64,000 bases of DNA from the human T2T-CHM13v2.0 reference genome, Homo sapiens. Both the position numbers and the translations under genes were made by a program. Numbering within the stretch: position 1 is the stretch's first letter; each line of letters opens with the position of its first letter. The notes below the pieces were generated by a model. That model had not been told where the DNA came from and did no database searches. It was given only the letters and a program-made list of their open reading frames with translations. The stretch lies in NCBI RefSeq assembly GCF_009914755.1, contig NC_060940.1. One strand, 5' to 3'. Positions 45,301-51,300 of this stretch are shown here, one piece after another.

Positions 45301-48300
45301 TGGTCCCCACATCCCTCCTCTCTGCAGAGCCGACCCACAGGGAACACGCACACATGTGGGGCCATTCCCGCAGCATCTGCCCTCCCATCACAGGCAAAGT
45401 CATTTCCCCGCTTGATATTTTCTGAAAGATGCACCAAATTCAGAGTCTGGTATGCAGCAGGTGCCTAATAAGTGCCTATTAAAAGGAACACGTGTGTCTG
45501 TTCCCTGATCAGACCCACTGACCCTTCACCTAGGGTGACAGCCCCTCTCATGAGGTCAACAACACTTAAGACCCGGCAAGGGACAGACCAGCCTGGAAGC
45601 CCCCAGTCGGCCTTGGGAGGCCTGGCCCAGCCCCTCCTGCTCCGTAGCTCTCCGGAAAGGACACGGCACCTGGCACGCCAGGCCTCCAGTGCCCACACCT
45701 GCCTGGGTCCCAGCAGGAAGCCTCTCTCCTGACCTCCGGCCTGGCCCCACCCCCCCATGGCCCTTCCACCACGTCGGGCACCCGGTGGGGTCCCGTTTGC
45801 TTGTTCATTTTGTTTGTTTTTTGAGAGAGAGTCTCGCTCTGTCACCCAGGCTGGAGTGCAGTCGCAAGATCTCGGCTCACTGCAACGTCCACCTCCCGAG
45901 TTCAAGTGATTCTCTTGCCTCAGCCTCCCAAGTAGCTGGGATTACAAGCATGTGCCACCACACCTGGCTAATTTTTGTAGTTTTAGTAGAGATGGGGTTT
46001 CGCCATGTTGGCCAGGCTGGTCTCAAACTCCTGACCTCGGCCCCACAAAGTGCCGGGATTACAGGCGTGAACCACCGTGCCCGGTCTGTTCATTTTTTTT
46101 TTTTTTTTTTTTGAGCCAGAGTCTGGCTCTGTCGCCCAGGCTGGAGTACAATGGTGCCATCTTGGCCCACTGCAACCTCTGCCTCCTGGATTCAAGCAAT
46201 TCTCCTGCCTCAGCCTCCTGAGTAGCTGTGACTACAGCCATGAGCCACCAAACCTGGCTAATTTTTGTATTTTTAGTAGAGACGGGTTCACCATGTTGGC
46301 CAGGCTGGTCTCGAACTCCTGACCTCAGGTGATCTGCCTGCCTCGGCCTCCCAAAGTGCTGGGATTACAGGCGTGAGCCACTGTGCCTGGCCTGTTTGTT
46401 TTTAATACAAATCTGAGTATGGTCCCTTGGCAACTACACGGCTGGGTGTGAACACAGCCTCCCTGTACCGTCCATACCCTGCACCTTCTAGTGGAGGCAC
46501 AGGCCTGGCTCCATCTCAGGCTGCCCCTTCCGCCCCAGGAACCTCCTGCCTCGGAAGAGTCCTTGTTTACCTGGGGCGGGGCCCAGGCGGGAGGGTTTAT
46601 CTCCCTCAGGATTTATGGTGCGGCTGTGGCCCACGTGGTGCCAGCTCCACTCAGCTGGGTACCAGAGACTGGGGTCTGCAACCAGGCCTGCGTGACTGAA
46701 CACAGAAAACGCCCCGGACACCGGACTCCCGACAGGCCCCTGGTGACACCATTGAGTGTGTGGTCACCGACACCCAGAAAGCATGATGCGCGTCTGTGAC
46801 AACATGAGTCAAGAAACGACGGGAAGCAGCGCCTGGTCCTTCCCAGCCCCTGCACGCCTCCCCCTTGGCTGAGGATTTTACTTTTTTTAGATAGAGTCTT
46901 GCTCTATCCCCCAGGCTGGAGTGCAGTGGCGCACTCTTGGCTCACTGCAACCTCAGCCTCCCAGGTTCAAGTGATCCTCGCGCCTCAGCCTCCAAGTAGC
47001 TGAGACTATAGGCGCGCACCACTACACCTGGCTAATTTTTGTATTTTTAGTAGAGACAGGGTTTCACCATGTTGACCAGGCTGGTTTCGAACCCCTGACC
47101 TCAAGTGATGTGCCCACCTCAGCCTTCCAAAGTGCTGGGATTACAGTGTGAGCCACCGTGCCTGGCCTGAACATGTGTTTTGTTTTGTTTTTTTTCCTTG
47201 AGATGGAGTCTCGCTCTGTCCTCCAAGCTGGAGTGCAGTGGCGTGATCTCGGCTCACTCTAAGCTCTGCCTCCCGGGTTCAAGCGATCCTCACGTCTCAG
47301 CCTCCCAAGTTCAAGTGCTCCTCGCGTCTCAGCCTCCCGAGTAGCTAGGACTACGGGCGCGCACCACCACACCCAGCTAATTTTGGTATTTTTAGTACAG
47401 ACATGTTGACCAGGCTGGTTTCGAACCCCTGACCTCAAGTGATTTGCCCGCCTCTGCCTCCCAAAGTGCTGAGATTACAGTGTGAGCCACCGTGCCTGGC
47501 CTGAATATATATATTTTTTTCTTTTTCTTTTTTTTCCTGAGGCAGAGTCTTGCTCTGTTGCCCAGGCCAGAGTGCAGTGGCACGATCTCAGCTCACTGCA
47601 AGCTCCGCCTCCTGGGTTCACGCCATTCTCCTGCCTCAGCCTCCTGAGTAGCTGGGACTACAGACGCCCGCCACCACGCCTGGCTGATTTTTTGCATTTT
47701 TAGTAGAGACGGGGTTTTGCCAGGATGGTCTTGATCTCCTGATCTCGTTATCCAGCTGCCTCAGCCTCCCAAAGTGCTGGGATTACAGGCGTGAGCTACT
47801 GCACCCAGCCCTGAATATGTATGTTTTTAATTGACATTTTCTCTCTGCTTTTTTCCCACATGACTCTTTCTTCTGTTACAGGCCAAGTGGAGAGACTCGC
47901 TGGCTGAGGGCAGCCCGAAGGCCAGCAAGCAAGACAAGCAAGCAGGTACAGCCCTCATGCCTCCACCCCCAGGCTTCCCGACCTGTGCCAGCCCTCGGCC
48001 AAAGTTAATCACTGTTCCTTCTGTGTGATAACCACGCTGTGAACCCCACAGCTTCTCTGGGACCTTCCAGCGACCCCTACGCCTGGGGGGTTGGAGGGAC
48101 GTACCTCGGGATGGAACTGCTGCTCCGTGCGGGAGTGGCAATACTGGCAGCCGTCGCCGCCATCGCAGCGTGAGGGTTCCCCCCACTCATCCCCGTGCTT
48201 CACGCTGGGGCAGGGCGTGGACCTGGGGATGAGGAGGTGTCAGGAGGACACAGAGGACTTGGCTCCCTGCCCCCCACCCCCGTGCTTCACGCTGGGGCAG

Positions 48301-51300
48301 GGCGTGGACCTGGGGATGAGGAGGTGTCAGGAGGACACAGAGGACTTGGCTCCCTGCCCCCCACCCCCGTGCTTCACGCTGGGGCAGGGCGTGGACCTGG
48401 GGATGAGGAGGTGTCAGGGGGACACAGAGGACTTGGCTCCCCCACCCCGACCCCCGTGCTTCACGCTGGGGCAGGGCGTGGACCTGGGGATGAGGAGGTG
48501 TCAGGGGGACACAGGAAAACATGGTTCCTCGTGTGCCCAGGGGTGTCTGCCTCCCACCAGGAGGGGCCTCGGGCATGGGGCCCTGGAGTGACAGGCAACG
48601 CAGCTCTGCGCTCACGGACACGCAGGCCCGGCCAGTGCCAGGATGGGGTCAGGAGCCCCGGGGCTGTTCTTCACAGAATTTAACTTGAGTCTCAGTCAGA
48701 GCCACCCTCACGGACGTGGAGAACGCAGGGGAGAAGCAGCCGAACCTCCTGGGGACAGTGAGGCCGGGCGCCCAGACAGCACGGGGCTGTCTCCTCGCCA
48801 ACTTTCTATAAAATGGAAGCGAGAGTTTTGATCCCACAATTTAAAACTCCGCACCAATTTCAAATTACCTATGTTCCTACTGCAGTGAGCTGAGACTGCA
48901 CCACCGCACTCCAGCCTGGGCCACAGAGTGAGACTCTGTCTCATAAAAAAACAAAATCCTCTACTCTTCGTGGAATCTCTAGCTGCTTTATTGTAACTGA
49001 TTTGTATTTATGGGACACATTAAGTGCCTGTTGAAAAAATAATTTTTATTTTCTTTCCATGACGGGCGATGACAAAATCTCAGACACTAATTTGTGGTTT
49101 GTTCTACAGCCGTTCAGGTCCTTTACTCGGAAGCTGCTCAGAGGGAGACTGAACGTGGCATAACAACAAGGAGTGGGGCGTCCTTCCCAAAGGAAGCACA
49201 GGTGCTCTCCGGGGCATGCGAGGCAGCACCAGGTCATTCAAAAGAGGCGAGGGTGGCTCTCTGCTCAAAGGAAGAGCTGGACACAGACAGGGCCTCAGGG
49301 AGGCCAAGGCCATGGCCCAGGCATCCAGACACCCTGTGGGGTCTGCACCCCCCCACCCCCCTCTCAGGTGCAAACTGCAGACAGGAGGCAAGCCAGGCCA
49401 GGCACAACCAGAAGGCCGGGCTGGAGCAAGGAGGAGAAAGGGGCTTCAGAGGCAAGCAGGCTGCGAGGTGCCAAACCCACAAGCCAGACCCAGGGGACAG
49501 CTGGGGCTCAGGCGGTGGAGGAAGGTCCTGTGTGCACCCTGGGCAGGGCGACCCTTGGGTTGTTGGCCCTGGGACTCAGCCTAAGGACCCGGCGTCCCAG
49601 CTGCCAGCTGTGAAGACAAGATTGAGCCCAGGTGACGACAGTGCCTGAGCCCCTGGCAGCTTGGGTGAGGAGACAGCATGCAGCCCACAGGCTGGAGAGC
49701 GTGGCTGCAACCAGAGGCACGGGTGGGGCACACGGGGGTCCCAGCTGGGCTTGGGGTCCCTCCTGCAGTGCTCCGTCCCCTTGCCTGGCAGAGGGGCCCC
49801 GGTAGGGGACTGCATGGGAGACACTGAGCGTAGGTGGGGAGGCCCATCCCCAGGACAGACGCGTGGGCCTCCATGGCACCTCCCACAGCCACTGTGCTTG
49901 GAGATGCCCTCCCCTCCCGGGGATGATGGTGCCACAAGGGCAGCCCTCCCATTAGAACCCCGGGGTGGGCAACGCGAGCCACGGGCCGGGAAGGACGCCC
50001 ACCAGCCGGAGTCCTCTGAGCACGGTCCCGCAGGCTCACCTGTACTGGAACCGCCGGGGGTTGCGCCGCCTGTCCCGGCTATTGTGGTAGTGTGGGCACG
50101 CATAGCCCTGGCGGCACAGGCGTGGCGGCTTCGGGCACTGCTCCGTCTTGTAGCTGCCCAGCACGAAGTTGGCATCTGAAAAATGGGCCACACGGTGCCT
50201 GAGCAGCGCGACTGGAAGCAATGCTGGGCAGAGGAGACCAAAGGTGGAAGGACCTGGCTGTCCCCCAAATGGAAGGGGCTGCAGGAGGACTTGGGGAGCG
50301 CAGACACACGCCACGGCACACGCTGATGTCAAAGGACTCGCGCTCCATGAGGGAAGCCGGGCCAGAAGGCCACGTGGTGTGATTCTGTTTATGTGAAAAT
50401 GCCCAGAACTAGGGAACCCACAGAGACGGAGTGGAGCCGAGACCACCAGGGCTGGGAGGGAGTCCTGCTGCGGGTGTGCGGCTTCCTTGCTGGGGGATGA
50501 AAACGTTCTCCAACTAGAGAGAGGTGATGTGTGCACAGCTTTTGAGAATATGCTAAAATCCAGAGACATGCACACCCCGAAATGCCGCATGGTGAGCCTC
50601 ATGCGCACCACAGCCTCTGGGTGAAAGCACACATCAGTGTGGGTTCACTGTTGGTAAAGAGCGTACCTCGCAGTGCAGGAGGTGCACGGCAGGGGAGGCT
50701 GAGGGGGCAGGGGGTGTTTGGGAAATCTATTTTTCTACTCAGTTTTGCTGTGAACCGGAAACCGCTCTAAAAAATAAAGCCTATTTTTAGAAGTCATTCA
50801 CTGGGCCGGACGTGGTGGCTCACGCCTGTTATCCCAGCACTTTGGGAGGCCGAGGTGGGTGGATCACAAGGTCAGGAGTTCAAGACTTGCCTGGCCAACA
50901 CAGTGAAACCCCGTCTCTACTAAAAATAAAAAATTAGCCGGGCATACTGGTGCCTGCCTGTAATCCCAGCTACTCAGGAGGCTGAGGCAGGAGAATTGCT
51001 TGAACCTGGCAGGCGGAGGTTGCAGTGAGCTGAGATTGTGCCACTGCACTCCAGCCTGGGTGACAGAGCGAGACTCCATCTCAAAAAAAAAAAAAAAAAA
51101 AAAAAAAAAAAAATCGCTGCCATACGCAATGTCCAGAATACACAAATTCACAAAGATGGGATGCAGGCCAGTGAGTGCAGGGACCAGGGAGGGGATGGGG
51201 AGGAACTGCTCATAAGCAGGGGGGTTCCTTCTGCAGGGATGGAATGTTCTGGAACTAGAGAGAGGTGGCAGCTGCACAACACTGCAGACGTGCTAAATGC

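What the first reader, a model, noticed from the sequence alone, without database searches (positions are those of the whole stretch)
48105..48513. An 87-bp VNTR quadruplicates a complete 3' splice site of UNKL zinc-finger exon E6, with a stop codon in every extra copy
Each unit holds the branch-point-like CTGAC, the pyrimidine tract, AG and the first ~32 exonic nt ([10 protein letters not shown]). Locally identical acceptors therefore occur at 48224/3, 48311/0, 48398/7 and 48485/4. The unit is 29 codons, so upstream acceptors stay in frame but read into the TGA of the next CTGAC. Only the last copy (118-nt exon) gives protein; the 205-, 292- and 379-nt versions should be NMD substrates. Copy number could act as a heritable dial on productive splicing, and on competition with the alternative terminal exon just upstream (49607). 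It is also a natural test of exon definition versus first-AG scanning.
Basis: partly seen in the sequence, partly recalled or inferred. Interest (0 to 1): 0.8.

Follow-up and report, generated by a model that had tools for sequence, protein, structure and literature searches.

The report
Tandem repeat copies UNKL splice acceptor
An 87-base tandem repeat at the start of one zinc-finger exon of the human UNKL gene gives that exon four look-alike splice acceptors, of which only the last can yield protein; the anatomy is real and unusual, but whether the extra copies are ever used or vary between people could not be tested here.

Summary
Window 48191-48514 is an 87-bp tandem array (3.7 copies, 97% matches, TRF score 606). 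It straddles the intron-5/exon-6 boundary of UNKL on the minus strand. Four acceptors are identical from -22 to +32, with exon first bases at 48483, 48396, 48309 and 48222. Each of the three upstream ones reads in frame into the TGA of the next CTGAC, 22 codons in. The unit occurs nowhere else in the genome. The paralogue UNK has the same exon and phase with one acceptor and no repeat, so the array is derived. It probably arose by duplication between two GGAACC hexamers that lie exactly 4 x 87 bases apart.

Nothing here shows that copy number varies or that the extra acceptors are used, so "VNTR" and "dial" remain hypotheses. No listed RefSeq exon starts at an upstream copy. Donor-side equivalents are in print: F7 IVS7, ABCA7, IFI6, CBS. 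There the exon-contiguous site dominates and the nearest pseudo-sites leak at most. My best reading is mostly silent pseudo-acceptors with a minor leak into nonsense-mediated decay (NMD). This is an acceptor-side variant of a known kind, of moderate interest.

The parts
48191..48514 (-). 87-bp tandem array, 3.7 copies by TRF. Four units in register if the degenerate 5' part of unit 1 (up to 48538) is counted.
48484..48506 (-). Pseudo-acceptor 1: branch-site-like CCCTGAC (branch A at 48501), C-rich pyrimidine tract, AG at 48485/4. Gives a 379-nt exon with an in-frame TGA at 48416-48414.
48397..48419 (-). Pseudo-acceptor 2: CCCTGAC, pyrimidine tract, AG at 48398/7. Gives a 292-nt exon with an in-frame TGA at 48329-48327.
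48310..48332 (-). Pseudo-acceptor 3: TCCTGAC, pyrimidine tract, AG at 48311/0. Gives a 205-nt exon with an in-frame TGA at 48242-48240. Its unit is 87 of 87 identical to the authentic one.
48223..48245 (-). Authentic 3' splice signal of exon 6: TCCTGAC with branch A at 48240 (-18), pyrimidine tract, AG at 48224/3.
   Evidence: hub annotation
48105..48222 (-). UNKL exon 6 (118 nt, 39 codons plus 1 base). Matches Pfam zf-CCCH_11, profile positions 9-42 of 42. Donor is GAG|GTACGT at 48105/48104.
   Evidence: hub annotation
48523..48528 (-). Upstream GGAACC hexamer, in register with the one in the exon (348 = 4 x 87 bases apart). Candidate duplication breakpoint.
48175..48180 (-). GGAACC hexamer inside exon 6. 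Candidate duplication breakpoint.

Best explanation
This is a derived minisatellite made by tandem duplication of the 87 bases that straddle the intron-5/exon-6 boundary of UNKL. The duplication probably occurred by slippage or unequal exchange between two GGAACC hexamers that were 87 bases apart in the single-copy ancestor. Each unit carries a complete core 3' splice signal: a branch-site-like CTGAC at -21 to -17, a C-rich pyrimidine tract, and AG, followed by 32 exon bases. The pre-mRNA therefore offers four near-identical acceptors. Only the exon-contiguous last one (48224/3) gives the CCCH zinc-finger frame. The other three add 87, 174 or 261 bases with an in-frame TGA and would be NMD substrates. 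I infer that the splicing machinery uses the last copy almost exclusively. Any leak would go mainly to the nearest pseudo-acceptor (48311/0, a 205-nt exon) and is removed by NMD. On this reading the array is a near-neutral structure with at most a small cost in UNKL output. Shown: the anatomy, the frames, uniqueness in the genome, and the derived state relative to UNK. Inferred: the origin at GGAACC, the preference for the last acceptor, NMD of the extended forms, and the small effect size.
For: Array and acceptors. In-frame TGA in each extra unit. Unit found only at this locus in the 3.1-Gb genome (3 of 3 matches are the array itself). The paralogue UNK (C17) has the same 39-residue exon at 77% identity in the same phase, with one acceptor; none of the 6 TRF rows in its 3.1-kb locus lies within about 400 bases of the exon. 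The GGAACC hexamers are 348 = 4 x 87 bases apart. A 6-mer identity at offset 87 within a 32-base zone occurs in 272 of 20000 random places in the window, and in 471 of 20000 GC-rich places. The hub table of 37 RefSeq transcripts lists no exon beginning at 48309, 48396 or 48483. That list is sorted by start and its one hidden entry follows 48746, so it cannot be one of these (inference). The 292- and 379-nt versions exceed all 27 internal coding exons of the selected transcripts in the window (longest 258), while 205 nt falls within range. Donor-side precedents come from PMC1557585 (abstract, Introduction and Discussion read). In F7 IVS7, 4 to 8 identical pseudo-donors stay silent though functional. 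In LMNB2 and PDGF only the authentic site is used. In IFI6 and CBS the two nearest pseudo-sites are also used. In ABCA7 (PMC5954066, passages only) use of a second-unit donor retains one 25-bp unit and gives a premature stop.
Against: No transcript data were available, so the preference for the last acceptor rests on annotation (which is biased towards coding-competent models) and on analogy with donors. Pseudo-acceptor 3 is 87 of 87 identical to the authentic unit and would define a 205-nt exon of ordinary size, so nothing in the local sequence disfavours it. The F7 paper's Discussion cites Lang and Spritz 1983, where duplicated sites in a globin gene were spliced only at the 'proximal copy', and Kuhne 1983 with opposite results. 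The outcome for duplicated acceptors is therefore not settled by precedent. G-run density does not separate the true exon from the extra units: 2 runs in 118 nt against 3 in 87 nt. The composition-controlled test of junction homology is not significant (combined p = 0.11), so the GGAACC origin rests mainly on the in-register spacing.
Confidence: 0.55

Rival explanations
1. One reading: upstream acceptors are used at an appreciable rate, each added unit diverts more pre-mRNA into stop-containing, NMD-degraded forms, and copy number varies between people, so the array acts as a heritable quantitative modifier of UNKL dosage.
For: All four acceptors share the core signal from -22 to +32. Every extended form carries an in-frame TGA. 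Units 3 and 4 are identical, which suggests recent unit gain and hence possible instability. ABCA7 is a precedent for a length-dependent splicing effect of a splice-site-spanning VNTR (passages). In F7, exon skipping rose with distance of the first functional site, so dosage effects of such arrays do exist.
Against: No listed RefSeq exon uses an upstream copy (hub table). No eVNTR or spl-TR entry for this array was found in five VNTR or tandem-repeat catalogues' supplements. UNKL was absent from three. The other two held one UNKL entry each, for different repeats. One file could not be searched in each. Short-read catalogues may simply not cover a 324-bp array of 87-bp units. Variability was not observed here.
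Confidence: 0.2
2. Decoy acceptors: the extra copies bind U2AF and U2 unproductively. Instead of being spliced, they slow removal of intron 5. That would favour intron retention, the 60-nt cassette exon (48746-48805), or the upstream alternative terminal exon with its poly(A) signals.
For: The same 1817-nt intron holds an annotated alternative cassette exon (hub table). It also holds an acceptor at 49609/8 followed by an ORF of 33 codons, with AATAAA at 49050 and 48992. The intron is thus already a site of alternative processing. The decoy-exon concept itself is recalled, not tested.
Against: There is no evidence for retention or for any link to the array. Folding the array as RNA shows no unusual structure: z = +0.37, with 64 of 100 shuffles folding at least as well.
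Confidence: 0.1
3. First-come use: the most upstream acceptor (48485/4), transcribed first and preceded by a more U-rich stretch, is preferred. Most UNKL pre-mRNA from this allele would then be unproductive.
For: [quoted passage not shown] Unit 1 has TGTTTTCC upstream of its branch site where the other units have AGTCCTC.
Against: It would make a 379-nt internal exon, longer than all 27 internal coding exons in the window. Units 1 and 2 have C rather than T at -23 in the branch-site heptamer. The selected RefSeq transcript and all listed models use 48222. Kuhne 1983 is cited as giving the opposite result (not held).
Confidence: 0.07
4. Assembly artefact: the extra units are a collapse or expansion error in this assembly and not a real allele.
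For: None found. It is listed only because a single haplotype was examined.
Against: The units are not all identical. Unit 2 differs at 5 of 87 positions and unit 1 at 17, which is not the pattern of a duplicated-read artefact. The RefSeq exon maps cleanly on the last unit.
Confidence: 0.02

Closest known systems
F7 intron 7 minisatellite (37-bp units, 5-9 copies), Borensztajn et al. 2006, PMC1557585
   Same: A minisatellite whose terminal unit spans an exon-intron boundary, so that the exact splice-site sequence is reiterated in the intron. The pseudo-sites are intact and functional in principle. It was used as a natural model of splice-site choice.
   Different: F7 reiterates the donor (5' splice site), with only 4 exon bases per unit. 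UNKL reiterates the acceptor with its branch site and pyrimidine tract plus 32 exon bases. F7 is known to be polymorphic and was tested with 50 constructs. For UNKL neither variability nor usage is known.
ABCA7 intron 18 VNTR (25-bp units), De Roeck et al. 2018, PMC5954066
   Same: The repeat starts with the splice site of the flanking exon. Use of the site in the next unit retains one unit and gives a premature stop and NMD. Repeat length correlates with splicing and dosage (passages only).
   Different: It is donor-side and a much longer array (23.7 units in the reference, and larger). One unit shifts the frame, whereas the UNKL unit is in frame (29 codons) and carries its own stop. ABCA7 has a disease association; none is known here.
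IFI6 (6-16), CBS intron 13, LMNB2 and PDGF intron 4 minisatellites, as listed in the Introduction of PMC1557585
   Same: Minisatellites that reiterate a splice site. They show the range of outcomes, from exclusive use of the authentic site to constitutive use of the two nearest pseudo-sites.
   Different: All are described there as donor-side. The original papers were not seen.
Engineered tandem duplications of globin splice sites (Lang and Spritz 1983; Kuhne et al. 1983), as cited in PMC1557585
   Same: Identical duplicated acceptors compete for one donor.
   Different: These are artificial two-copy constructs with contradictory outcomes. The originals were not held.
NAGNAG / tandem alternative acceptors (recalled)
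   Same: More than one usable AG for one exon.
   Different: Those are 3 bases apart and share one branch site and pyrimidine tract. Here the AGs are 87 bases apart and each has its own branch site.

Membership tests
Minisatellite spanning a splice junction (F7 IVS7 type) | Head-to-tail array with units of tens of bases | tested here: met
   Period 87, 3.7 copies, 97% matches
Minisatellite spanning a splice junction (F7 IVS7 type) | The terminal unit spans the exon-intron boundary, so the splice-site sequence recurs in the intron | tested here: met
   The last unit holds the annotated acceptor 48224/3 and 32 exon bases, and three more copies lie upstream. It is on the acceptor side, whereas all published members seen are donor-side.
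Minisatellite spanning a splice junction (F7 IVS7 type) | Only, or mainly, the exon-contiguous site is used | not testable with these tools
   No transcript data. The hub table lists no exon starting at an upstream copy.
VNTR (variable number tandem repeat) | Copy number differs between individuals | not testable with these tools
   Only one haplotype is held. The array is absent from the supplements of five catalogues that were searched, which does not show that it is invariant.
Unproductive splicing coupled to NMD | An alternative splice form carries a stop well upstream of the last exon junction | tested here: met
   In-frame TGA 22 codons into each extended exon. Nine annotated exons follow (hub table).
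Unproductive splicing coupled to NMD | The alternative form is actually made and rises when NMD is blocked | not testable with these tools
   No RNA data. A search for UNKL with nonsense-mediated decay listed nothing relevant among its 5 hits.
Recursive splice site | An acceptor followed by a sequence that regenerates a good 5' splice site after the first splice | tested here: not met
   The junction would read CAG|GTCCAC. None of the 29 annotated donors in the window has C at both +3 and +4.
NAGNAG tandem acceptors | Alternative AGs 3 bases apart sharing one branch site | tested here: not met
   The AGs are 87 bases apart, each with its own CTGAC.

The most novel reading that the evidence does not exclude
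The array is a polymorphic, acceptor-side counterpart of the F7 and ABCA7 repeats. Its pseudo-acceptors are used in proportion to their number, so copy number titrates productive UNKL mRNA through NMD. Human alleles would then form a natural series for asking how the spliceosome chooses among identical 3' splice sites, each with its own branch site, in a native gene.
Probability: 0.2. Interest if true: 0.6.

Novelty: new variant of a known kind. Interest (0 to 1): 0.4.

Why it matters
Choice among identical competing splice sites is an old question. The natural models described in the papers I could read are all donor-side (F7, IFI6, CBS, LMNB2, PDGF, ABCA7). An array that repeats a complete acceptor unit, in frame and with a built-in stop, would give the matching acceptor-side model. 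If its copy number varies, it would also give a ready allelic series and a simple mechanism for a splicing or expression QTL that short reads would miss. If the extra copies are silent, as I think most likely, it is a neat example of how robustly the exon-contiguous site is chosen. It would then have little consequence for UNKL.

Tried and rejected
1. RNA structure masking the pseudo-acceptors. Folding 466 nt of the array as RNA gave -211 kcal/mol against a shuffle mean of -213.9 (z = +0.37; 64 of 100 shuffles fold at least as well). There is no support.

2. Recursive splicing through the GT that follows each AG. The regenerated site CAG|GTCCAC is poor. Rejected.

3. G-runs as the mark that makes the extra units 'intronic'.
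- Coding exons in the window have 1.88 G3+ runs per 100 nt.
- Intron ends have 2.97 to 3.42.
- The extra units have 3 per 87 nt, but the true exon also has G4 and G6 runs.
This is inconclusive.

4. A micro-exon route: a pseudo-acceptor plus the in-repeat GGG|GTGGGG, which resembles the real GNPTG donor AAG|GTGGGG. It would add 32 nt and shift the frame. The 55-nt gap to the next AG is too short for an intron (minimum intron size recalled). It is not productive either way.

5. Homology of the internal junction to the junction predicted from the flanks. Only 5 of 5000 whole-segment shuffles reach the observed score. That test is confounded by the G-rich to pyrimidine-rich gradient. Shuffling the two halves separately gives 589 and 985 of 5000, combined p = 0.11. 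I therefore do not rely on it.

6. A recombination-hotspot 13-mer (degenerate pattern, recalled). The window has 24 matches against 7.3 expected, but none lies in the array.

7. Retrocopies that might record the junction used. The exon-6 peptide finds only UNKL, UNK and two weak hits (4 matches).

8. Literature.
- UNKL with VNTR: 1 irrelevant paper.
- UNKL with tandem repeat: 15 listed, none on human UNKL by title.
- UNKL with sQTL: 0 papers.
- UNKL with nonsense-mediated: 5 listed, none relevant by title and abstract start.
- Acceptor-side minisatellite searches found only donor-side cases.

9. Supplements.
- Hamanaka 2023: no UNKL in 10 files, with one file not searched.
- Bakhtiari 2021: only a 12-bp coding UNKL repeat elsewhere.
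- Eslami Rasekh 2021 and Lu 2021: none.
- Lu 2023: one UNKL row, for a repeat outside the gene, with one file not searched.
- Mukamel 2021 preprint: the main text has no UNKL and its supplements are closed.

10. Orthologues in apes or other mammals. No collection of eukaryotic genomes other than the window's own was available, so copy number in other species could not be checked.

11. Calls that gave nothing. Earlier findings were not open. Kuhne 1983 and Smith 1993 were not held.
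Full report
**What is there.** UNKL lies on the minus strand of the window. Tandem Repeats Finder reports one array at 48191-48514: period 87, 3.7 copies, 97% matches, no indels, score 606. Among the 32 rows at score 80 or more in the whole window, only an Alu-like 329-bp pair scores higher.

Read on the gene's strand, the array holds four AG dinucleotides, at 48485/4, 48398/7, 48311/0 and 48224/3. 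Each is preceded by the same CTGAC and the same C-rich tract. Each is followed by the same 32 bases, which encode [10 protein letters not shown]. The last AG is the annotated acceptor of exon 6 (48105-48222, 118 nt).

Cut in register with the acceptors (-55 to +32), the units compare as follows:
- Units 3 and 4 are 87 of 87 identical.
- Unit 2 matches them at 82 of 87.
- Unit 1 keeps the original upstream intron and matches at 70 of 87.

All differences lie at -55 to -23. From -22 to +32 the four copies are identical. For unit 2 against unit 3, 5 of 33 positions differ in the first part and 0 of 54 in the second (Fisher p = 0.006). The one difference that touches a splice signal is at -23, in the branch-site heptamer. 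It is T in units 3 and 4 (TCCTGAC) and C in units 1 and 2 (CCCTGAC).

**The reading frame.** The coding frame gives a 39-residue peptide that matches Pfam zf-CCCH_11 ('UNK-like, CCCH zinc finger'). The E-value is 2.1e-23, and profile positions 9-42 of 42 are matched. The finger therefore starts in the upstream exon and any mis-joining destroys it.

Exon 5 ends TACAG. Splicing to any of the four AGs keeps the frame, because 87 = 29 codons. Each extended exon (205, 292 or 379 nt) runs into a TGA after 22 codons. That TGA is part of the next unit's CTGAC. Only the last acceptor can give protein. With nine annotated exons downstream, the extended forms should be NMD substrates. The NMD rule is recalled here, not tested.

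**Are the copies plausible acceptors?** The branch A of CTGAC lies 18 bases from the exon. The typical distance quoted in Hamanaka 2023 (passages only) is 19 to 37 bp, so this sits at the short edge.

No AG lies between the branch A and the acceptor AG. The nearest upstream AG is about 36 bases from the acceptor (sequence). The core signal is thus contained within each unit.

By pyrimidine content at -20 to -4 (0.76), the acceptor ranks equal tenth of 31 annotated acceptors in the window. Its U content is low, at 0.24. It is an ordinary, C-rich site.

**Where it came from.**
- The unit is found nowhere else in the 3.1-Gb genome. All three matches of a two-unit query are the array itself.
- The exon-6 peptide finds the paralogue UNK on contig 17 at 77% identity.
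- In UNK the exon has the same phase (CAG|G TCG...), a single acceptor and no tandem repeat nearby. None of the 6 TRF rows in its 3.1-kb locus lies within about 400 bases of the exon.

The array is therefore derived in UNKL.

Two GGAACC hexamers, at 48528-48523 in the intron and 48180-48175 in the exon, are 348 = 4 x 87 bases apart. Taking out three units leaves them 87 bases apart, equal to the period. This is what slippage or unequal exchange between them would produce. Such an in-register 6-mer occurs by chance in 272 of 20000 random places in the window (1.4%), and in 471 of 20000 GC-rich places (2.4%).

Direct homology of the internal junction to the junction predicted from the flanks looked strong in a whole-segment shuffle (5 of 5000). 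That test is confounded by composition. Shuffling the two halves separately gives a combined p of 0.11. I treat the GGAACC origin as likely, not shown.

If it is right, the junction segment has changed much more than the acceptor segment. About 10 of 32 positions differ against 1 of 55 (Fisher p = 0.0001). That could reflect homogenisation with the selected last copy, or mutability of the G-runs. I cannot tell which.

**Which acceptor is used?** This could not be tested, because no transcript data are reachable.

The hub's table of 37 RefSeq transcripts lists no exon starting at 48309, 48396 or 48483. The list is sorted by start and its one hidden entry follows 48746-48805, so it cannot be one of these. 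This is my inference, and annotation favours coding-competent models.

Exon size would not exclude the nearest pseudo-acceptor. The 27 internal coding exons of the selected transcripts in the window range from 55 to 258 nt. A 205-nt exon falls within that range, while 292 and 379 nt exceed it.

Three other ideas failed or were inconclusive:
- RNA folding gives no sign of masking (z = +0.37).
- G-run density is intron-like in the extra units, but the true exon also has G4 and G6 runs.
- A regenerated donor for recursive splicing would be CAG|GTCCAC, which is poor.

**What is known.** I found no paper linking UNKL to a VNTR, tandem repeat, sQTL or NMD. These searches cover only the library's Creative-Commons PubMed Central papers and bioRxiv preprints.

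The array is not in the searchable supplements of five repeat catalogues:
- Hamanaka 2023 has no UNKL entry, with one file not searched.
- Bakhtiari 2021 lists only a 12-bp coding UNKL repeat elsewhere.
- Eslami Rasekh 2021 and Lu 2021 have none.
- Lu 2023 lists one UNKL eVNTR that lies outside the gene, with one file not searched.

Absence from short-read catalogues does not show that the array is invariant.

The kind of object is known on the donor side. The F7 intron 7 minisatellite (37-bp units, 5 to 9 copies) has a first unit that spans the exon 7 boundary. Its identical pseudo-donors are functional but silent, and only the most upstream, exon-contiguous site is used. With that site inactivated, the distance of the first functional site raises exon skipping. 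I read the abstract, Introduction and Discussion of PMC1557585.

The same Introduction lists IFI6 and CBS, where the authentic site plus the two nearest pseudo-sites are used. It also lists LMNB2 and PDGF, where only the authentic site is used.

In ABCA7 (PMC5954066, passages only) the 25-bp VNTR starts with the exon 18 donor. Use of the next unit's donor retains 25 bases and gives a premature stop.

The F7 Discussion notes that engineered duplicated globin sites gave contradictory results (Lang and Spritz 1983 against Kuhne 1983). I saw those only as citations, and two originals were not held.

Five searches aimed at acceptor-side arrays found none.

**Verdict.** The mechanism I think most likely (0.55) is a derived junction-spanning minisatellite whose three upstream copies are pseudo-acceptors. 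They would be silent or leak slightly, mainly at 48311/0, into NMD.

It is an acceptor-side variant of a known kind.

In passing, the same gene has the classic donor-side arrangement at exon 19798-20000.

Noticed in passing
window 19642-19814 (minus strand; donor of UNKL exon 19798-20000): A second junction-spanning minisatellite in the same gene, this time donor-side like F7. It has a 56/57-bp period, 3.0 copies and 84-85% matches, and covers the last 17 exon bases and the first 156 of the 298-nt intron. Besides the authentic CAG|GTGAGT, five more AG|GTRAG sites follow at extensions of 25, 57, 113, 179 and 260 nt.
   Followed up: partly
window 48746-48805 (minus strand): A 60-nt alternative cassette exon of other RefSeq transcripts (hub table) lies about 230 bases upstream of the array in the same intron. 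Its flanks read ...TTTTATAG|AAAG and ...AGGAG|GTTCGG. At 60 nt it is a multiple of three and keeps the frame. By my reading it has no in-frame stop.
   Followed up: partly
There is an acceptor ...CTTGTCTTCACAG| with the exon starting at 49607. The frame continues from exon 5 for 33 codons to a TGA, and AATAAA signals lie at 49050 and 48992. It may be the hub table's hidden '1 more' exon.
   Followed up: partly
whole window: The window is very rich in GC-rich minisatellites: 32 TRF rows at score 80 or more. Examples are 7004-7425 (32 bp x 13), 24937-25154 (55 bp x 4), 27008-27430 (30 bp x 13), 38007-38187 (26 bp x 7) and 44236-44465 (69 bp x 3.4). It is also enriched for the degenerate hotspot-like 13-mer, with 24 matches against 7.3 expected, many of which look Alu-derived (CCNCCTTGGCCTC).
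   Followed up: no
L005 (genome contig 17: 76706914-76707030, plus strand): The paralogue UNK keeps the same exon boundaries and phase for this zinc-finger exon. Its donor is GAG|GTGGGC, followed by G-runs.
   Followed up: partly
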